Sequence record: PP400788
Origin: Escherichia phage FL33
Direction: 5' to 3' (one strand)
Length of the DNA: 64,000 nucleotides
The stretch's first letter is position 1. Each line of letters opens with the position of its first letter. Made by a program: the position numbers and the translations under genes. The notes under the pieces were generated by a model. That model was not told the origin of the DNA and did no database searches. It saw only the letters and a list, made by a program, of their open reading frames with translations. Of the stretch, positions 966 to 6,310 are shown piece after piece.

Positions 966-1421
966 TTAAAAGAGGCTGTTCATTATTCGGTAAAGTGAAG
1001 GACCCATCACATATTGCCACTGAGTACGAGGAATAAGAGCAAAAGCATCCATCTCTGGAATCATAACGCCATCTTTATTTTCAAAATAAGACTCGCAATG
1101 GCAATTTCTAAACATCTCATGCTCTACTGGAATCGTATAATAAAATAACTGTAAGTCTTTATTACTAGAATATTTAAATACACCTAGGTCTTCTAGAAGG
1201 TCTGGATTATAATTGCTAAAACCGGTCTCTTCTAAGCATTCTCTTTTTGCAGCTTCCAGTGCATTCAAATCAGAACTTTCTACACGTCCCTTTGGAATAT
1301 CCCAGCGATGTGCCATCATTCCAGGCTTACGAGAACCAGTAACCCGACCCATAAATAAATCTTTATCTTCTGTCATGAAGATAATACCAGCTGATAATGT
1401 TTTCATTTTAATTTCCTGCAT
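966..1421 (-). CDS. nudE: Nudix hydrolase
   Basis: 151 aa; Nudix box visible (GRVESSDLNALEAAKRECLEETGF); position immediately upstream of e as in T4; alternative start at 1406. Confidence 0.85.
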   Translation of the reverse strand: MQEIKMKTLSAGIIFMTEDKDLFMGRVTGSRKPGMMAHRWDIPKGRVESSDLNALEAAKRECLEETGFSNYNPDLLEDLGVFKYSSNKDLQLFYYTIPVEHEMFRNCHCESYFENKDGVMIPEMDAFALIPRTQWQYVMGPSLYRIMNSLF

Positions 1422-1801
1422 TCAGTGATAAAGTTATTTAAATTTTGAGCATATTTCTTTTCATCAAAAATCTTTTGTTGTCTGCGTAAACGCCATGGCA
1501 TTTCAATGAACATACGCCATATTCCTGATAATACTGCTGCTGTAAAAATATTAACAAGTATAGTTAAAAGAACCCAATCTCCTATTCTGTCCATTGGATT
1601 TTTTATAAAAAAGTAAAATACGAACGATGATATAGGAAGACTAATAATATACCACAGAATCATAATCTTATCTGTGAACCAATCAGCGTTCGTTAACTTA
1701 GCGCGACCATTATAAATACACACGAATTTATCATCTGTTGCAGTAGATGGCTTAGCTGCTTGATATCCCATTCTAAACTCCCTAATCAGCAAATTTTTCA
1801 T
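1403..1801 (-). CDS. Small 2-TM membrane protein with basic C-terminal tail (paralog family member 1)
   Basis: 132 aa; two hydrophobic helices (ILWYIISLPISSFVFYFFI, WVLLTILVNIFTAAVLSGIW); C-terminal ...FITECRKLK; start ATG overlaps stop of an upstream micro-ORF (ATGA). Confidence 0.6.
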   Translation of the reverse strand: MKNLLIREFRMGYQAAKPSTATDDKFVCIYNGRAKLTNADWFTDKIMILWYIISLPISSFVFYFFIKNPMDRIGDWVLLTILVNIFTAAVLSGIWRMFIEMPWRLRRQQKIFDEKKYAQNLNNFITECRKLK

Positions 1802-1886
1802 ATCTTCGGAACAGCCATTCCAGTCAACTCTATCAACTGAAATGCCATCATCCCATCATCTAAATCATACCAGCGAGTTTTTAAAA

Positions 1887-2249
1887 TCATCTGATTTTCC
1901 TACAATCACTCACAAACTCTTTCATTGATTCATTTTCAATATAAGACATGTAGTTATTATATTCTTTTAACTGTATTTTGTAATCCTTTTTTCTTTGCCA
2001 ATTTATTTTAAAATTATCATAATGAAAATATAGTATAGTACCAAAGAATGAAAATAATGAAATCGCTATAGTATAACGAAGTTCGCTCCAAACCTCTGTT
2101 ATAATTGCTGAACTATCGACGTTTAAAATAAAACAGTCAATCATTAGTCCAATAAGACTACCCGCAAGAGCTGCAAATACTGATACGGCAAGAATTAATA
2201 GTGCCTCAAGAAACGAATATTTGACTTTATTTAGTTTTGGCTTTTGCAT
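1887..2249 (-). CDS. Small 2-TM membrane protein (paralog family member 2)
   Basis: 120 aa; two TM helices; C-terminal ...EFVSDCRKIR; stop overlaps downstream start (ATGA). Confidence 0.6.
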   Translation of the reverse strand: MQKPKLNKVKYSFLEALLILAVSVFAALAGSLIGLMIDCFILNVDSSAIITEVWSELRYTIAISLFSFFGTILYFHYDNFKINWQRKKDYKIQLKEYNNYMSYIENESMKEFVSDCRKIR

Positions 2250-2611
2250 CGTGATTCCTTAACAAATTTCATAATTTCGTTAAATTCATACATATCTAGT
2301 TTAAGCTGGTGTTCCTTTTTAATCTTTTTACACTGAGCTTTCCATTCACGTACGCGTTTACGATAATGCCTTCCTTGATACCAGTATCCTACCCAATTTA
2401 CAGGTACTAATAAAAGTGGAACTATTAATGGAAGAATTAGCATTAACACAAGTATTTCGCCAGAATCAATATCAGTCATAACATCTAAAACACCTCCAAT
2501 AATCAATAGAATGAGTATAACAGGACCTATTAACACATCAGTAGAAATTATCTGACGCTTTAATTCATACTTCAACGGTTTACTTGGAAGGTATAGTGAT
2601 GGCTTTGACAT
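2231..2611 (-). CDS. Small 2-TM membrane protein (paralog family member 3)
   Basis: Start taken at ATG 2611 (MSKPSLYLPSK; AAGGAA SD upstream) rather than the track start 2632; two TM helices; C-terminal ...FVKESRCKSQN. Confidence 0.55.
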   Translation of the reverse strand: MSKPSLYLPSKPLKYELKRQIISTDVLIGPVILILLIIGGVLDVMTDIDSGEILVLMLILPLIVPLLLVPVNWVGYWYQGRHYRKRVREWKAQCKKIKKEHQLKLDMYEFNEIMKFVKESRCKSQN

Positions 2612-3188
2612 ATTCTCTACATTCCTTAACAAATTTTTCTAGTAATAAATCACTTTCAAAATTGGGATTTTCTACAAATTTATCAAAAAGATCATCAACA
2701 ATAGTTAAGATATTCTTTTTACTAAGAATACGTTTATTTTCATGCTTCGTTTCAGAATCAACTATAAGAGTAAAGAAATATTTCTTGCCCTGAAATTTTA
2801 CAGTAGTATCAATATAAAATAAATTTGACTTTTGTAAATTACGTTTAAACCATGCGTCACTTAAACTATAAACGCCAAGATAATCATAATCGTCGTTTAA
2901 ATAACAAACTGTCCATTCAGGAGAAATGAAATCAGTAAATTCAACGTCAAAATCGCATGTTAATAAATGAATTGATTCAATACTGTTAATAAGTATTCCA
3001 GGACGTATTAAAGACTTTTTACCTCTAGAAAATCTTCCAGAAAGACTTTCATCAGTTTCATATGAAGAACCCCAATAATAATTACGTCCTTCTGCCATAC
3101 GTTTAAGAGCATTTAGTAATTGGTCTGGAACATCAACCCGTCTTTGGAACTCTTCAAACATTGAATTGAAATCACTTTGCATTTTCAT
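2580..3188 (-). CDS. Hypothetical protein (202 aa), soluble, shares C-terminal FVKECR motif with downstream membrane paralogs
   Basis: ATG at 3188 with GGAG SD (rc of 3195-3205); C-terminal region overlaps start of next gene. Confidence 0.6.
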   Translation of the reverse strand: MKMQSDFNSMFEEFQRRVDVPDQLLNALKRMAEGRNYYWGSSYETDESLSGRFSRGKKSLIRPGILINSIESIHLLTCDFDVEFTDFISPEWTVCYLNDDYDYLGVYSLSDAWFKRNLQKSNLFYIDTTVKFQGKKYFFTLIVDSETKHENKRILSKKNILTIVDDLFDKFVENPNFESDLLLEKFVKECREYVKAITIPSK

Positions 3189-3209
3189 TCCTATTTACTC
3201 CAAGTAATA

Positions 3210-3224
3210 GGGGCCGAAGCCCCT
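3210..3224 (-). other. Intergenic GC stem-loop (GGGGCCGAAGCCCC)
   Basis: Perfect 5-bp GC stem with GAA-type loop between stop of 3230..3823 gene and SD of the 2580..3188 gene; not followed by a clear T-run. Confidence 0.4.
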
Positions 3225-3229
3225 TATCA

Positions 3230-3823
3230 TTATTTCAGAGAATTAATATATTCCTGGACATCGGCAGAGGTAGTTTCAACCCCAGAAATATTGCCGTTAA
3301 AAGTTTCAACTCGAGCAAGGGTATCTTCAATATCAACCTTAGTCAGTGCTGCAATTTCAACTACATCATCGGCAGTACTAATTCCAAGGGCATTCGCTGC
3401 ACGAGTTTCACGGATATATTCCAATTTAACCGCAAGTTCTTGACGAGCATCATCTAACTCAACTACTTTCTTGGCGATTTCAATTCGCATTTCAGCATAA
3501 CCGTCAGCCTTAGTAGTCAACTGCTCAGCTGTTCGACGATATAGTAAACCGAGTTTAGCATGCATTGTTACATCTTGGCCTTCGGAAAGAAGTTTACGAA
3601 TTTCACGCTCTTTTGATTCGGCCTGTCGATTCTTTTCGATAACAAGTTCACGAATACGTTTTTCTTCGTTAATAGATTTAACAGAAGCAGTTTTTAGATC
3701 TTTAATTTTATCAAGTAGTTTTGCTGCTGCAGCAGTATACTGTTCTTCGACAGATAGATTTTTAGCCATAGCAGAACCAAGTTTAGTGCGAATAAACTCA
3801 ACAATTTTCTTCAGTGTGTTCAT
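3230..3823 (-). CDS. Coiled-coil protein, possible PspA/IM30 (phage-shock protein A)-like
   Basis: 197 aa, heptad-rich charged sequence; segments [27 protein letters not shown] and [12 protein letters not shown] resemble E. coli PspA from memory; AAGGAA SD upstream of ATG 3823. Confidence 0.45.
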
Positions 3824-3866
3824 AGTATTTCCTTAGGTTAATTGAGATTTAAAATCCATGAGAGTA

Positions 3867-4043
3867 TTATACTCCGGATAGTTTGTAAACTATTTCAACA
3901 TCGCCTTTTGCTGCTTTATAACCTTCAGCCCAAGATATAACCGACTTCTTATCTGAAGATTCAAATTCTGGCATTGGGCTTTCGCCAATGTTCACGCAGT
4001 ATGTTTCTTCATTTTCGTCGAACCAAATAATTAAAGTAGTCAT
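3867..4043 (-). CDS. Small hypothetical protein (58 aa), below the ORF-track size cutoff
   Basis: ATG at 4043 preceded by GGAGAAATAA; translation MTTLIIWFDENEETYCVNIGESPMPEFESSDKKSVISWAEGYKAAKGDVEIVYKLSGV; stop TAA at 3867-3869. Confidence 0.5.
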   Translation of the reverse strand: MTTLIIWFDENEETYCVNIGESPMPEFESSDKKSVISWAEGYKAAKGDVEIVYKLSGV

Positions 4044-4112
4044 TTATTTCTCCGTTTTCTGTATTTGTTTTGATAAGTCTATAATAACACCGTCCTTGGC
4101 GCTTGTACACAA

Positions 4113-4376
4113 TTATTTCATATTATTGAAATATTCTTCTGCGATTTCATCGTTATCATGGTAAACTTTAGAAGACAGTTTAACATAACCTTCAGCAGTG
4201 AACATGTTAATCACAACCTTTACAGTATACCACTGACCATCTTCATTACCCATTACTGCATAGGTTTCAAACATCGGATGGTCAGGACCGATAACTTTAA
4301 TATCATTCACTGTACGACCGAAATCTTCTGAAACACATTTCATAAAGAAGTTGAACAGTTCGCCGTAATTATCCAT
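4113..4376 (-). CDS. Hypothetical protein (87 aa)
   Basis: Track ORF 4113..4388 begins at TTG; first ATG (MDNYGELF...) at 4376 is preceded by GGAG at correct spacing. Confidence 0.6.
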   Translation of the reverse strand: MDNYGELFNFFMKCVSEDFGRTVNDIKVIGPDHPMFETYAVMGNEDGQWYTVKVVINMFTAEGYVKLSSKVYHDNDEIAEEYFNNMK

Positions 4377-4412
4377 TTCGTTCTCCAAGTTGTTTTCTGT
4401 ATCAGTAGTTGA

Positions 4413-4470
4413 TAGTTGTATAGTACCATGGAAGAACAGGGATGTAAACAGTTTTGTGAAAAATTTTTAA
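4413..4470 (-). promoter_or_regulatory. T4-type early promoter (copy 1 of 3 near-identical promoter repeats)
   Basis: Minus strand: A/T-rich UP region, GTTTACAT (-35; fwd gtaaac 4444-4449), 17-18 nt spacer, TACTAT -10 (fwd tagta 4421-4425); same architecture at 7305-7360 and 7668-7725. Confidence 0.55.
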
Positions 4471-4580
4471 AAAATTTTAGAGAATTCTAGGGTCAGGAGG
4501 GGCAATTAAAAGGTAGGATAATATATTATAAAGGGTATAAACCAAATGATGCCTAGAGAGGCCCGGAAAGGCCTAGATAC

Positions 4581-4612
4581 CAAAAAGCCCCAACCTTTCG
4601 GCTGGGGCTAAG
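4581..4612 (-). terminator. Rho-independent terminator hairpin (copy A of a 35-nt repeat)
   Basis: Minus strand AGCCCCAGCCGAAAGGTTGGGGCT followed by TTTTTGG; immediately downstream of the 4617..5090 gene. Confidence 0.7.
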
Positions 4613-4616
4613 AATG

Positions 4617-5090
4617 TTATTTGATTTGTTTAGCAGACCAAATGCGGTCTTTGATGATTTTTTGAATGTCTTCAACATACTCTAGGTCATGAGCATGTGG
4701 GTTATCTTTGAAACTATAAGCACGAGCTAGTTTTTGGCCTTCAGTTTTGATTACTAAAAGCTCTTTAAGGATAGCTTCATATTTAGCGATAATTCCTTTA
4801 ACAATATTTTTTTCTTGTGCAGCTTTAGGATCTGCTTTAGGAGCAGGTTTACCCGAAGCCTTTGCAAAAGCAGCACCAGTAGCAACTAAACTTTTCCAGG
4901 CCATACTAACCGCATTTCCTGTAAATCCTTCTGCTTTCATGTCGCGAGCAAACTTGAATCGTGATTCGTCAGAAGCATCTTTATAGGAATATTTACCCGC
5001 TGCAATGGCTGCTTTTGCGACAGCTTGAATTTCGGTGCTAGATGCTTCATTTAACACCGCTTCATTTAAAAATTGAGTATATGATTTCAT
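4617..5090 (-). CDS. Late-expressed protein with capsid-targeting-sequence-like N-terminus (predicted head-packaged internal protein)
   Basis: 157 aa from ATG 5090 (AGGAAA SD); N-terminus MKSYTQFLNEAVLNEASSTE resembles T4 internal-protein CTS MKTYQEF with LxE motifs typical of gp21 protease sites; Ala/Lys-rich body; track ORF start 5267 is upstream of a terminator and promoter and is rejected. Confidence 0.6.
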   Translation of the reverse strand: MKSYTQFLNEAVLNEASSTEIQAVAKAAIAAGKYSYKDASDESRFKFARDMKAEGFTGNAVSMAWKSLVATGAAFAKASGKPAPKADPKAAQEKNIVKGIIAKYEAILKELLVIKTEGQKLARAYSFKDNPHAHDLEYVEDIQKIIKDRIWSAKQIK

Positions 5091-5128: not shown

Positions 5129-5136
5129 TATTTATA
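5129..5136 (-). promoter_or_regulatory. T4-type late promoter TATAAATA (minus strand) for the 4617..5090 gene
   Basis: Forward TATTTATA at 5129-5136, between the upstream terminator hairpin and the SD/ATG at 5090. Confidence 0.55.
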
Positions 5137-5168
5137 CCAAAAAGCCCCAACCTTTCGGTCGGGGCTAA
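5136..5168 (-). terminator. Rho-independent terminator hairpin (copy B of the 35-nt repeat)
   Basis: TACCAAAAAGCCCCAACCTTTCGGTCGGGGCTAAG; differs from copy A (4578-4612) by a 2-nt swap; on the minus strand the stem is followed by a T-run. Confidence 0.7.
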
Positions 5169-5214
5169 GCCTTGCGGCAACCTTGTCGGGGTTCCACCTG
5201 CTAAGGCAAGTGTT

Positions 5215-5481: not shown

Positions 5482-5557
5482 TGGTCGAGGCAGTAGGGAT
5501 CGAACCTACGACCCAGGACTTAGAAGGTCCTTGCTCTTCCTTCTGAGCTATGCCTCG
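5482..5557 (-). tRNA. tRNA-Arg (anticodon UCU)
   Basis: 76-nt cloverleaf: acceptor 5486-5492/5551-5557 fully paired, T-loop fwd GATCGAA, anticodon stem 5515-5519/5527-5531, loop CUUCUAA, CCA encoded (fwd TGG 5482-5484). Confidence 0.85.
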
Positions 5558-5561
5558 TATT

Positions 5562-5636
5562 TGGCGGACGTGATAGGATTCGAACCTATAACCAATCGCT
5601 TAACAGGCGATCGCTCTGCCATTGAGCTACACATCC
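5562..5636 (-). tRNA. tRNA-Asn (anticodon GUU)
   Basis: 75-nt cloverleaf: acceptor 5566-5572/5630-5636 (one G-U), T-arm ATAGG-ATTCGAA-CCTAT, anticodon stem 5595-5599/5607-5611 perfect, loop CUGUUAA, CCA encoded. Confidence 0.75.
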
Positions 5637-5640
5637 AAAT

Positions 5641-5727
5641 TGGTGGGGAGTGGTGGAGTCGAACCACCCGAGTCGCAATGACAATGGATTTACAGTCCAC
5701 ACCGCTACCTCTACGGGATAACTCCCC
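5641..5727 (-). tRNA. tRNA-Tyr (anticodon GUA), long-variable-arm type
   Basis: 87 nt: acceptor 5645-5651/5721-5727 perfect, T-arm GGTGG-AGTCGAA-CCACC, anticodon stem 5684-5688/5696-5700 (one G-U), loop CUGUAAA, CCA encoded. Confidence 0.7.
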
Positions 5728-5736
5728 AAATTAATT

Positions 5737-5811
5737 TGGTGGCCCTGGGTGGAATTGAACCACCATCTGGCGATTATGAGTCGCTTGCTTGAACCTTCCA
5801 GCTACAGGGCC
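5737..5811 (-). tRNA. tRNA with anticodon CAU (Ile-lysidine type or Met)
   Basis: Acceptor 5741-5747/5805-5811 perfect, T-arm GGTGG-AATTGAA-CCACC, anticodon loop CUCAUAA; position corresponds to T4 tRNA-Ile. Confidence 0.75.
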
Positions 5812-5812
5812 T

Positions 5813-5888
5813 TGGTGCTGATTGACGGAATTGAACCGCCGACCTTCTCATTACAAGTGAGTTGCTCTACCTACTGAGCTAAATCAGC
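5813..5888 (-). tRNA. tRNA-Thr (anticodon UGU)
   Basis: Acceptor 5817-5823/5882-5888 perfect, T-loop fwd AATTGAA, D stem GCTC/GAGC, anticodon loop CUUGUAA, CCA encoded. Confidence 0.8.
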
Positions 5889-5894
5889 AAAATC

Positions 5895-5984
5895 TGGCGG
5901 AGGCGATAGGATTTGAACCTATGAGTCGCCGGAGCGACTGCCGGTTTTCAAGACCGGTGCATTAAACCACTCTGCCACGCCTCC
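5895..5984 (-). tRNA. tRNA-Ser (anticodon UGA), long-variable-arm type
   Basis: 90 nt: acceptor 5899-5905/5978-5984 perfect, T-arm ATAGG-ATTTGAA-CCTAT, variable-arm hairpin GTCGC/GCGAC, anticodon stem CCGGT/ACCGG, loop CUUGAAA. Confidence 0.85.
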
Positions 5985-5986
5985 AG

Positions 5987-6060
5987 TCTCCGTGGCAGGA
6001 TTTGAACCTGCGACATTCTGCTCCCAAAGCAGACGCTCTACCAAACTGAGCTACACGGAG
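5987..6060 (-). tRNA. tRNA-Pro (anticodon UGG); CCA not encoded
   Basis: Acceptor 5988-5994/6054-6060 perfect, T-arm GCAGG-ATTTGAA-CCTGC, anticodon stem TCTGC/GCAGA, loop UUUGGGA; abuts tRNA-Ser with a 2-nt spacer (dimeric precursor arrangement as in T4). Confidence 0.85.
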
Positions 6061-6072
6061 TAAATTAAATTT

Positions 6073-6144
<72 letters not shown>

Positions 6145-6149
6145 AAATT

Positions 6150-6236
6150 TGGTGCGAGAAGTGGGACTCGAACCCACAAGGAAATCATTCCGCAGCATTT
6201 TAAGTGCTGTGCCTTTACCAATTTGACCATTCTCGC
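6150..6236 (-). tRNA. tRNA-Leu (anticodon UAA), long-variable-arm type
   Basis: 87 nt: acceptor 6154-6160/6230-6236 perfect, T-arm GTGGG-ACTCGAA-CCCAC, anticodon stem CAGCA/TGCTG, loop CUUAAAA, CCA encoded. Confidence 0.85.
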
Positions 6237-6237
6237 G

Positions 6238-6310
6238 CTGGGAATAAAGGACTCGAACCTTTGCATCCTGGAATCAAAATCCAGTGCCTTACCAACTTGG
6301 CTAATTCCCA
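6238..6310 (-). tRNA. tRNA-Gln (anticodon UUG); CCA not encoded
   Basis: Acceptor 6239-6245/6304-6310 perfect, T-arm AAAGG-ACTCGAA-CCTTT, anticodon stem CTGGA/TCCAG, loop UUUUGAU; separated from tRNA-Leu by 1 nt. Confidence 0.85.

What the first reader, a model, noticed from the sequence alone, without database searches (positions are those of the whole stretch)
3230..3823. Possible phage-encoded PspA/IM30-like coiled-coil protein
The 197-aa protein is almost entirely charged heptad-rich helix, and two segments ([27 protein letters not shown]; [12 protein letters not shown]) resemble, from memory, conserved stretches of E. coli PspA ([45 protein letters not shown]). A phage PspA/Vipp1-type membrane-remodelling protein next to a cluster of small membrane proteins would suggest a module that manages inner-membrane stress during infection.
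Basis: inference. Interest (0 to 1): 0.5.

Follow-up and report, generated by a model that had tools for sequence, protein, structure and literature searches.

The report
T4 e.6 is a divergent PspA/IM30 protein
The 197-residue protein is the T4 gene e.6 product, so far listed as "function unknown", and it turns out to be a very diverged phage relative of the bacterial membrane-repair protein PspA/Vipp1, so T4-like phages appear to carry their own "phage shock protein".

Summary
The ORF is real. It lies at window 3230-3823 on the minus strand, encodes 197 aa, and is the ortholog of T4 e.6 (98.5% identical).

The window protein alone does not hit PspA in Pfam, NCBIfam or PDB sequence searches. 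The homology is shown through its family (PHROG 1203):
- Vi1-like (Ackermannviridae) members pass Pfam's own cutoff for PF04012 PspA_IM30 (39.0 and 35.1 bits against 33.9). One GenBank record already labels its copy "PspA/IM30 family protein".
- Those members align full-length with the T4-like subfamily (hhalign 99.7%, P 7.5e-26; BLASTP E 3e-11).
- The whole-family profile puts Vipp1/PspA as the top 8 PDB sequence hits (E 1e-4 to 2e-3, in register).
- hhalign against a 132-sequence IM30 profile gives 93.3% (P 2.7e-7). Reversed-sequence controls stay at or below 0.7%.

Two features differ from canonical IM30. The AEDP motif is missing, and the C-terminal 58 aa show no significant similarity on their own.

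The "module with neighbouring membrane proteins" is not supported by synteny. In T4, e.6 RNA is early, the protein is detected, and knock-down has no effect in the lab.

The membrane-protecting function is inferred, not shown. I file it as a new member of a known kind.

The parts
3230..3823 (-). e.6 coding sequence (197 aa plus stop at 3230-3232), a divergent PspA/IM30-superfamily protein in PHROG 1203
   Evidence: ORF. 98.5% identical to T4 e.6, NP_049742. PHROG 1203, E 1.6e-87. Homology chain to PF04012.
3758..3823 (-). aa 1-22: N-terminal cationic amphipathic helix, the α0 equivalent and putative membrane anchor
   Evidence: AF2 helix 2-22, at low pLDDT. Hydrophobic moment 0.45 versus 0.49 for E. 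coli PspA; net charge +4. Aligns to PspA/Vipp1 α0 from residue 1.
3584..3751 (-). aa 25-80: helix α1, first arm of the hairpin
   Evidence: AF2 helix 25-80, pLDDT rising from about 70 to 97. In-register alignment to Vipp1 and PspA α1.
   Evidence: AF2 helix 86-145. Foldseek versus Vipp1 6zvs_A: rmsd 3.0 Å over 123 columns, TM(target) 0.70. hhalign covers 1-139.
   Evidence: pLDDT below 50 for 152-180, helix 186-196. Charge. No significant similarity on its own. Aligned collinearly with PspA α4/α5 in global and deep-profile alignments.
3830..3834 (-). Shine-Dalgarno AAGGA for e.6
   Evidence: Read directly from the sequence.
3209..3224 (-). GC-rich hairpin (AGGGGC-UUCG-GCCCCU) 5 nt after the e.6 stop; likely terminator or RNA-stabilising hairpin between e.6 and e.5
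   Evidence: Sequence and scan. The same hairpin is listed as predicted terminator 'e.6' in phage UFV13 (PMC5931544). 'terminator' features lie under the match in the fPS-90 and fPS-2 records.
4420..4448 (-). σ70/T4-early-type promoter (GTTTACA, 17 nt, TG-n-TACTAT) upstream of e.8-e.7-e.6; assignment is inferred
   Evidence: Scan and sequence. Consistent with the early RNA class of e.6, e.7 and e.8 in T4 (PMC9697503 supplement).
4586..4609 (-). strong intrinsic terminator hairpin closing the upstream unit
   Evidence: Scan: 10 bp stem, 7 GC pairs, T-run.
3867..4388 (-). e.7-position gene (3867-4043, 58 aa) and e.8 (4113-4388 as listed from a TTG start; FL34 annotates it from the ATG at 4376), probably co-transcribed with e.6; no known function
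   Evidence: ORFs. FL34 annotation. PHROGs 5461 and 2678, both 'unknown'.

Best explanation
The gene is the T4 e.6 ortholog. Its product belongs to a phage-specific, strongly diverged clade of the PspA/IM30 (Vipp1, LiaH) family, which is part of the ESCRT-III superfamily. The clade is PHROG 1203 and occurs in T4-like (Straboviridae) and Vi1-like (Ackermannviridae) phages.

Shown here:
- homology over residues 1 to about 140-177;
- the IM30 helix layout: a cationic amphipathic α0, then a 25-80/86-145 hairpin, then an acidic tail;
- early transcription, and protein detected in T4 (from the literature).

Inferred mechanism: soon after infection the protein binds the cytoplasmic face of the inner membrane through α0. 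It polymerises through the hairpin, as PspA and Vipp1 do, and stabilises or reseals the membrane, which preserves the proton-motive force. This would give the infected cell a PspA-type effector at a time when T4 has shut off host transcription, so the host's own σ54/PspF-dependent psp induction is probably unavailable. The likely benefits are a robust energy supply, no premature PMF-triggered holin firing, and tolerance of membrane damage from superinfection or membrane-targeting defences. It acts without PspB, PspC or PspF-type partners encoded nearby.

My confidence in the homology is about 0.9. My confidence in the membrane-protecting effector role is about 0.5.
For: Family identity:
- PHROG 1203 for both the window protein and the Kuttervirus 'PspA/IM30 family protein' sal1_8 (E 4e-66; annotation).
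- BLASTP of sal1_8 against window e.6: 23% identity over 194 aa, E 3e-11.
- hhalign of the T4-like subfamily against the Ackermannviridae-like subfamily: 99.7%, P 7.5e-26, full length.

Link to IM30:
- P0186 scores 39.0 bits and P0185 35.1 bits against the PF04012 cutoff of 33.9, covering aa 6-146 and HMM positions 2-143. The next Pfam hit for either is at E 0.03 or worse.
- Both are full-length family members, E 7e-20 and 1e-21 against the T4-like profile in a search of 1.8 billion proteins.
- The 45-sequence family profile against PDB sequences gives Vipp1/PspA as the top 8 hits, E 1e-4 to 1.9e-3, aligned 1-146 to 1-147.
- hhalign of the family against IM30: 90.5% (P 1.4e-6) with a 15-sequence profile and 93.3% (P 2.7e-7, 1-177 to 1-172) with a 132-sequence profile. 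Reversed controls give 0.3-1.2%.
- The family without the Ackermannviridae-like members still gives 79-84%.

Structure:
- The AF2 model has pLDDT 74.7 overall and above 90 across the hairpin core.
- Foldseek's top 8 of 350,542 PDB chains are all Vipp1 (E 3e-3 to 2e-2, probability 0.99-1.00), followed by archaeal ESCRT-III CdvB2.
- In the viral structure library BFVD, after its own family, the next hits include a giant-virus Snf7 protein (rank 7, E 1e-2) and the Acinetobacter phage ME3 PspA/IM30 protein (rank 10, E 6e-2).

Features:
- α0 hydrophobic moment 0.45 versus 0.49 for PspA.
- Net charge +4 / +2 / -7 for α0, hairpin and tail (family means: α0 +3.6, tail -7.0), like Vipp1 at +2 / +3 / -8.
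- Distant members start MGILSR, MSIFQR and MNIFKR, like PspA MGIFSR and Vipp1 MGLFDR.

Expression:
- Early RNA and middle protein class in T4 (PMC9697503 supplement).
- An early-type promoter upstream.
Against: - The window protein alone has no PF04012, NCBIfam or PDB-sequence hit, even at E up to 10.
- The close T4-like subfamily alone gives only 2-5% hhalign probability, so the inference for this protein is transitive.
- The near-invariant IM30 'KAEDP' linker is replaced by K-N-L-S-V-E-E.
- The C-terminal 58 aa are not significantly similar on their own and are modelled with low confidence.
- No conserved membrane partner was found.
- Knock-down of T4 e.6 has no fitness effect under standard conditions (PMC11879866 supplement).
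- Oligomerisation and membrane binding are untested.
- The 'host cannot induce psp after shut-off' argument rests on general T4 knowledge, not on data obtained here.
Confidence: 0.6

Rival explanations
1. PspA-derived mimic or decoy. e.6 keeps the PspA hairpin but no longer acts on membranes. Instead it binds host partners of PspA and so manipulates host stress signalling or immunity. Candidate partners are PspF, PspB/C, host PspA polymers, or defence enzymes that use PspA as a docking or conjugation target, such as CBASS Cap2.
For: The conserved part is the α1-α3 hairpin. In E. coli PspA that region is the PspF-binding and regulatory region (established knowledge, not tested here). The canonical AEDP motif is lost and the C-terminus has diverged, which fits a change of function. 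PspA is the conjugation target that restrains a Bacillus CBASS cyclase (PMC11153139), so a phage PspA could in principle act as a sink. Early expression is typical of host-takeover and anti-defence genes.
Against: The cationic amphipathic α0 is kept across the whole family, which argues for retained membrane binding. Blocking PspF adds little once T4 has shut off host transcription. The CBASS-PspA link was not seen in E. coli. HIDEN-SEQ does not mention e.6 among T4 genes that are conditionally essential against the tested defence systems; only the main text was searched.
Confidence: 0.2
2. Generic coiled-coil protein with no evolutionary relation to PspA. The resemblance would reflect charged heptad composition and the commonness of helical hairpins. 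The function could be anything, for example a scaffold or adaptor.
Against: Reversed-sequence controls have the same composition and heptad content, and they score 13-20 against 41-64 for the real alignments. The alignments start at residue 1 and stay in register through the hairpin loop. Two family members pass Pfam's curated PF04012 cutoff at E 1e-8 to 1e-9. Foldseek's top 8 PDB hits are exclusively Vipp1.
Confidence: 0.07
3. Virion or 'host specificity' protein (tail-fibre or tail-associated coiled coil), as many automatic annotations say.
For: Many records carry the label 'host specificity protein', which comes from RAST/ACLAME similarity. One BFVD entry in the family is named 'Tail completion protein'.
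Against: The T4 gene has early RNA, whereas structural genes are late. It sits in an early region between the tRNA genes and nudE. Curated T4 and PHROG annotations say 'unknown'. Labels for the same protein are mutually inconsistent, including 'recombination endonuclease subunit D12'. No tail or fibre domain was detected.
Confidence: 0.03

Closest known systems
E. coli PspA (phage shock protein A; Pfam PF04012; PDB 4WHE)
   Same: Similar length class (197 versus 222 aa). N-terminal amphipathic helix with a similar hydrophobic moment (0.45 versus 0.49). α1/α2-3 hairpin aligned from residue 1 (hhalign 93%). Acidic C-terminal part.
   Different: Only about 12-15% identity in the profile alignments and 24% in the best BLASTP segment. 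Lacks the AEDP motif including Pro25. About 25 aa shorter, with a diverged C-terminus. α0 is more cationic (+4 versus 0). Encoded by a lytic phage as an early gene, without pspF or pspBC-type neighbours.
Synechocystis / Nostoc Vipp1 (IM30), cryo-EM rings and tubes (7O3W, 6ZVR, 8QFV and others)
   Same: Best hits in PDB sequence space (E 1e-4, aligned 1-146 to 1-147) and in Foldseek (top 8). Same helix boundaries and hairpin-loop position. Same charge pattern, +2/+3/-8 versus +4/+2/-7.
   Different: e.6 has no Vipp1-type C-terminal extension (α6). Nothing is known about whether it forms rings or tubes. Sequence identity in the structural alignments is 14-19%.
Ackermannviridae 'PspA/IM30 family protein' (e.g. 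Salmonella phage vB_SentM_sal1 ORF8, QMV34086.1; clusters P0185 and P0186)
   Same: Same PHROG 1203. Full-length alignment with e.6 (BLASTP E 3e-11; hhalign 99.7%). Similar length, about 202 aa.
   Different: These members keep enough IM30 signal to pass Pfam's cutoff, whereas the T4-like members do not. The genomic neighbourhood differs: replication genes, and a 1-TM protein directly downstream.
ESCRT-III proper (archaeal CdvB2, yeast Snf7, CHMP1B, Asgard ESCRT-IIIB)

Membership tests
PspA/IM30 family (Pfam PF04012; ESCRT-III superfamily) | Direct significant match of the protein itself to the PF04012 HMM (gathering cutoff 33.9 bits) | tested here: not met
   The window protein has no PF04012 hit even at E up to 10. 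No PspA-family model appears in NCBIfam. No PDB sequence hit by phmmer.
PspA/IM30 family (Pfam PF04012; ESCRT-III superfamily) | Homology to IM30 shown by profile or transitive searches with adequate controls | tested here: met
   Family members P0186 and P0185 score 39.0 and 35.1 bits, above the 33.9 cutoff, and link full-length to e.6. The family profile gives Vipp1/PspA as the top 8 PDB hits, E 1e-4 to 2e-3. hhalign gives 90.5-93.3% against reversed controls of 1.2% or less.
PspA/IM30 family (Pfam PF04012; ESCRT-III superfamily) | N-terminal amphipathic helix α0 (about residues 2-22) used for membrane binding | tested here: met
   AF2 helix 2-22. Hydrophobic moment 0.45, versus PspA 0.49 and Vipp1 0.61; 6% of shuffles reach this value. 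Net charge +4, family mean +3.6. Binding itself is untested.
PspA/IM30 family (Pfam PF04012; ESCRT-III superfamily) | α1 / α2+3 antiparallel helical hairpin, the ESCRT-III core, with matching boundaries | tested here: met
PspA/IM30 family (Pfam PF04012; ESCRT-III superfamily) | Conserved K-A-E-D-P linker between α0 and α1 (invariant in my 8 diverse seed sequences) | tested here: not met
   IM30 seeds have invariant K21 A22 E23 D24 P25. e.6 has K21 N L S V E E27, and the family consensus is K-N-x-S-x-E-D.
PspA/IM30 family (Pfam PF04012; ESCRT-III superfamily) | C-terminal helices α4/α5 following the hairpin | tested here: inconclusive
   Low-confidence short helices and helix 186-196. Alone they give hhalign probability 0.5%. 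Global and deep-profile alignments place [13 protein letters not shown] on [13 protein letters not shown] and ...EYINSLK on ...QLAQLK.
PspA/IM30 family (Pfam PF04012; ESCRT-III superfamily) | Basic N-terminal core and acidic C-terminal tail | tested here: met
   +4 / +2 / -7 for e.6; family means are +3.6 for α0 and -7.0 for the tail. Vipp1 is +2 / +3 / -8.
PspA/IM30 family (Pfam PF04012; ESCRT-III superfamily) | Homo-oligomerisation into rings, rods or carpets, and membrane binding or remodelling | not testable with these tools
   No multimer prediction or experiment was available.
Psp / Lia-type operon system (PspA with PspF and PspB/C, or LiaH with LiaI) | Genomic association with a cognate membrane anchor or regulator | tested here: not met
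   The neighbours e.2-e.5, e.7 and e.8 have no PspB, PspC or other significant Pfam hit. They are not conserved next to e.6 homologs in five other phage genera. Only Kuttervirus has an unrelated 1-TM protein directly downstream.
Eukaryotic/archaeal ESCRT-III (Snf7, PF03357) | Match to the Snf7 family profile | tested here: not met
   No PF03357 hit was listed for the window protein or among the families shown for family members. Only fold-level resemblance was seen.
Phage 'host specificity' / tail proteins (the automatic annotation) | Late expression and a structural domain | tested here: not met
   Early RNA class in T4. No tail or fibre domain. PHROG category 'unknown'.

The most novel reading that the evidence does not exclude
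T4-like and Vi1-like phages carry their own ESCRT-III-superfamily membrane-repair protein. It is made within minutes of infection and replaces the host's Psp response, which the phage has silenced. By keeping the inner membrane sealed and energised, it would set the conditions for holin timing and lysis inhibition. It could also blunt membrane-depolarising abortive-infection effectors and damage from superinfecting phages. This would be a phage-encoded 'phage shock protein' acting as a pro-viral membrane guardian.
Probability: 0.35. Interest if true: 0.75.

Novelty: new member of a known kind. Interest (0 to 1): 0.58.

Why it matters
T4 is the reference lytic phage, and e.6 is still listed as "conserved hypothetical / unknown function" in the curated T4 record and in 2022-2025 T4 functional-genomics tables. 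PHROG 1203 is also unannotated.

Assigning it to the PspA/IM30-ESCRT-III superfamily gives more than 1,000 phage genomes a testable function for a conserved early gene. It corrects misleading automatic labels such as 'host specificity protein'. It also shows that this diverged clade is much the most common IM30-type protein in sequenced phages: canonical PspA is found in only 2 of 50,697 records.

It opens direct experiments on how a virulent phage manages inner-membrane integrity and proton-motive force between DNA injection and programmed lysis. It also adds a compact viral member (197 aa, no partner genes) to a superfamily whose polymerisation mechanics are under active structural study.

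Tried and rejected
- **Single-sequence searches.** Pfam, NCBIfam and phmmer against PDB gave no PspA hit, only noise-level coiled-coil matches.
- **Exhaustive HMM search with the T4-like profile over 1.8 billion proteins.** It returned only 45 representatives of the same family and no direct bridge to canonical PspA.
- **AFDB50 fold search.** The library was unavailable.
- **Genome-contig scan for diverse PspA.** It returned only Enterobacterales PspA at 78-99% identity, which was useless for profile depth. The first PspA protein search was equally shallow. Diversity came instead from viral contigs and a seeded profile search.
- **C-terminal region alone against the IM30 C-terminus.** No signal.
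- **T4-like subfamily alone against IM30.** 2-5% probability only.
- **Search for a conserved membrane partner or Psp-type module.** BLASTP across six phage contexts and Pfam/PHROG scans of the neighbours were negative.
- **Literature.** No paper in the library describes a phage-encoded PspA or a function for e.6. The BSPM4 ORF52 lysis-timing paper concerns a different protein.
- **DNA repeat behind the shared C-terminal motif of e.2-e.5.** None found at the gene ends.

Full report
**What is there**

Window 3230-3823 holds a 197-aa ORF on the minus strand; the plus strand frame is full of stops. The window is a Tequatrovirus genome segment, 100% identical over 2 kb to Escherichia phage FL34.

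The gene order on the minus strand is e.8, e.7, e.6, e.5, e.4, e.3, e.2, nudE, e, as in T4. The protein is 98.5% identical to T4 e.6 (NP_049742.1, 'e.6 conserved hypothetical protein').

The protein is 34% charged and has no Pro, Cys or Trp.

**Direct tests of the PspA idea are negative or marginal**

The window protein alone has no PF04012 hit even at E up to 10. NCBIfam gives no PspA-family model, and phmmer finds no PDB sequence. Its only strong match is PHROG 1203, 'unknown function'.

BLASTP against E. coli PspA gives a collinear but weak alignment: 24% identity, 38-183 versus 38-179, E 0.015 for a single comparison. I recalled the PspA sequence from memory and verified it at 100% identity to database PspA. 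The recalled resemblance was therefore a lead, not a proof.

**The family provides the bridge**

tblastn finds e.6 homologs in 1,099 phage records across the T4-like genera. An exhaustive HMM search of 1.8 billion representative proteins finds only 45 clusters, all about 200 aa long.

I scanned 45 diverse members one by one against Pfam. Five hit PF04012 PspA_IM30, with a best E of 8.9e-10.
- P0186 (39.0 bits) and P0185 (35.1 bits) exceed Pfam's gathering cutoff of 33.9, matching aa 6-146 to HMM positions 2-143.
- Their next Pfam hits are at E 0.03 or worse.
- Their closest sequenced relatives are in Ackermannviridae phages of about 157-160 kb; the taxonomy was checked for Kuttervirus sal1 and Miltonvirus 3M.
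- In Salmonella phage vB_SentM_sal1 the gene is already annotated 'PspA/IM30 family protein'.

That protein falls in the same PHROG 1203 (E 4e-66, full length). It aligns full-length with the window's e.6 (BLASTP 23% identity, E 3e-11). hhalign of the T4-like subfamily against the Ackermannviridae-like subfamily gives 99.7%, P 7.5e-26, over 2-197 and 5-201. The reversed control gives 0.2%.

**Profile tests with controls**

A 45-sequence family profile searched against all PDB sequences gives Vipp1/PspA as the top 8 hits (E 1e-4 to 1.9e-3), aligned from residue 1 (1-146 to 1-147). The first unrelated coiled coil, prefoldin, appears at E 2.7e-3.

I built IM30 profiles from verified E. coli PspA and Synechocystis Vipp1, seven canonical PspA genes from viral contigs, and later 120 further PF04012 proteins.

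| hhalign query against IM30 | 15-seq profile | 132-seq profile |
|---|---|---|
| Whole e.6 family | 90.5%, P 1.4e-6, 1-139 to 1-133 | 93.3%, P 2.7e-7, 1-177 to 1-172 |
| Ackermannviridae-like members only | 94.5% | 96.1% |
| Family without those members | 79.3% | 84.0% |
| Close T4-like subfamily only | 2.3% | 4.8% |

Reversed-sequence controls keep composition and heptad content. They give 0.1-1.6%, with scores of 13-20 against 41-64 for the significant real alignments; the T4-like-only alignment scores 22-24, close to its controls. The signal lies in residues 1-139 (94.1% for that part alone). The C-terminal 58 aa alone give 0.5%.

So the homology is well supported, but for the T4-type protein it is transitive.

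**Structure**

The AF2 model has mean pLDDT 74.7, with values above 90 across the hairpin core. It shows helix 2-22, a hairpin at 25-80/86-145, a low-confidence stretch at 152-180, and helix 186-196.

- **Foldseek against 350,542 PDB chains.** The top 8 are all Vipp1 (E 3e-3 to 2e-2, probability 0.99-1.00). The hairpin fits 6zvs_A at rmsd 3.0 Å. Archaeal ESCRT-III CdvB2 filaments follow.
- **BFVD.** It returns the protein's own family first. The next hits include a giant-virus Snf7 protein (rank 7) and the PspA/IM30 protein of Acinetobacter phage ME3 (rank 10).

The fold agrees with IM30/ESCRT-III, but the fold alone would not prove it.

**IM30 hallmarks**

Met:
- α0 is amphipathic (hydrophobic moment 0.45 versus 0.49 for PspA) and cationic.
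- Helix boundaries and the hairpin-loop position coincide with Vipp1.
- The charge pattern is +4 / +2 / -7, like Vipp1 at +2 / +3 / -8.
- Distant members start MGILSR, MSIFQR or MNIFKR, like PspA and Vipp1.

Not met or unclear:
- The invariant KAEDP linker is absent.
- The C-terminal α4/α5 equivalents are uncertain.

Oligomerisation and membrane binding could not be tested.

**Context and expression**

On the minus strand, a strong terminator (4609-4586) is followed by a T4-early-type promoter (4448-4420). Then come e.8, e.7 and e.6, and a GC hairpin with a UUCG loop 5 nt after the e.6 stop. That hairpin is listed as a predicted terminator in a related phage (PMC5931544).

In T4, e.6 RNA is classed early and the protein, detected by MS, is classed middle (PMC9697503 supplement). 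CRISPRi-ART lists e.6 as unknown function, and its knock-down has no fitness effect (PMC11879866 supplement).

The neighbours e.2, e.3 and e.4 are predicted membrane proteins. However, none resembles PspB or PspC. Neither they nor e.5 accompany e.6 in RB43, phiAS4, AS-yj, Miltonvirus or Kuttervirus.

**Mechanism**

My best-supported reading is an early-expressed, partner-independent PspA-type effector. It would bind the inner membrane through α0 and polymerise through the hairpin, stabilising the membrane and preserving the proton-motive force. I reason from general T4 knowledge, not from data obtained here, that host shut-off leaves the host's own inducible Psp response unavailable at that time.

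Rivals are:
- a PspA mimic or decoy aimed at PspF, PspB/C or defence enzymes (PspA is a CBASS conjugation target in Bacillus);
- a generic coiled coil, largely refuted by the controls;
- a virion 'host specificity' protein, contradicted by early expression.

**Novelty**

I found no paper in the library that describes e.6 or a phage-encoded PspA. Canonical PspA is nearly absent from sequenced phages, at 2 of 50,697 records. The Ackermannviridae relatives already carry an automatic PspA/IM30 label in at least one record.

I therefore file this as a new, highly diverged member of a known family rather than a new kind. It is interesting because it sits in T4 itself and is directly testable.

Noticed in passing
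window 1403-3188 (minus strand; e.2, e.3, e.4, e.5): Four consecutive, otherwise dissimilar proteins end with a similar C-terminal motif: e.2 ...NFITECRKLK, e.3 ...EFVSDCRKIR, e.4 ...KFVKESRCKSQN, e.5 ...KFVKECREYVK.... e.2-e.4 are predicted 1-2-TM proteins. BLASTP shows no similarity between them, and no DNA repeat lies at the gene ends. This could be a shared interaction or targeting tail, or remote paralogy.
   Followed up: partly
window 3867-4043 (minus strand): The gene in the e.7 position encodes a 58-aa protein (PHROG 5461). It is unrelated to T4 e.7 (111 aa, PHROG 7266) and gives no BLASTP match, so a gene has been replaced at a conserved locus directly upstream of e.6.
   Followed up: partly
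window 1403-1801 (minus strand) versus T4 67652-67960: The window's e.2 ORF is 132 aa from the first in-frame ATG (FL34 annotates 122 aa) and matches PHROG 2203 'membrane protein' end to end. T4's annotated e.2 is 102 aa and shares only a 66-aa block with it (88% identity). Two shorter PHROGs each match one half. The T4 reference gene looks truncated or frameshifted, or annotated differently.
   Followed up: partly
window 4577-4612 and 5134-5169: A 36-nt direct repeat (94% identity) carrying a strong terminator hairpin flanks a 157-aa ORF (4617-5090, annotated hypothetical in FL34). The ORF sits where T4 has rnaC and rnaD. A near-identical hairpin is listed as the rnaC terminator in phage UFV13. 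This may be a small inserted cassette.
   Followed up: partly
window 5485-6310 (minus strand): A cluster of 10 tRNA genes with no segB homing endonuclease, against 8 tRNAs plus segB in T4. One of them (5646-5725) only just passes the Rfam tRNA threshold, at 30.3 bits against 29.
   Followed up: no
L092 (RB43, NC_007023.1) 3693-3986: The RefSeq RB43 record annotates e.6 as a 97-aa C-terminal fragment. tblastn on the other RB43 record (HE858210.2) matches residues 2-197. This points to a frameshift or sequencing error, or a truncated annotation, in NC_007023.
   Followed up: no
public records H17, H20, H32; BFVD A0A5Q2F7S5: The same protein family carries mutually inconsistent automatic names: 'host specificity protein', 'recombination endonuclease subunit D12' and 'Tail completion protein'. 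None is supported by anything found here.
   Followed up: partly
L082-L089 (IMG/VR viral contigs): Canonical PspA genes with the KAEDP motif (24-33% identical to E. coli PspA) occur on a few viral contigs, four of them 263-361 kb long. These are distinct from the e.6 clade. Whether they are true jumbo-phage genes or host or prophage contamination was not checked.
   Followed up: no
L091 3567-4139 (Kuttervirus sal1 ORF9): Directly downstream of the Ackermannviridae PspA-like gene lies a 190-aa protein with a single N-terminal TM helix (PHROG 11433 'membrane protein'). It is unrelated to T4 e.2-e.5 and could be a lineage-specific membrane partner.
   Followed up: partly
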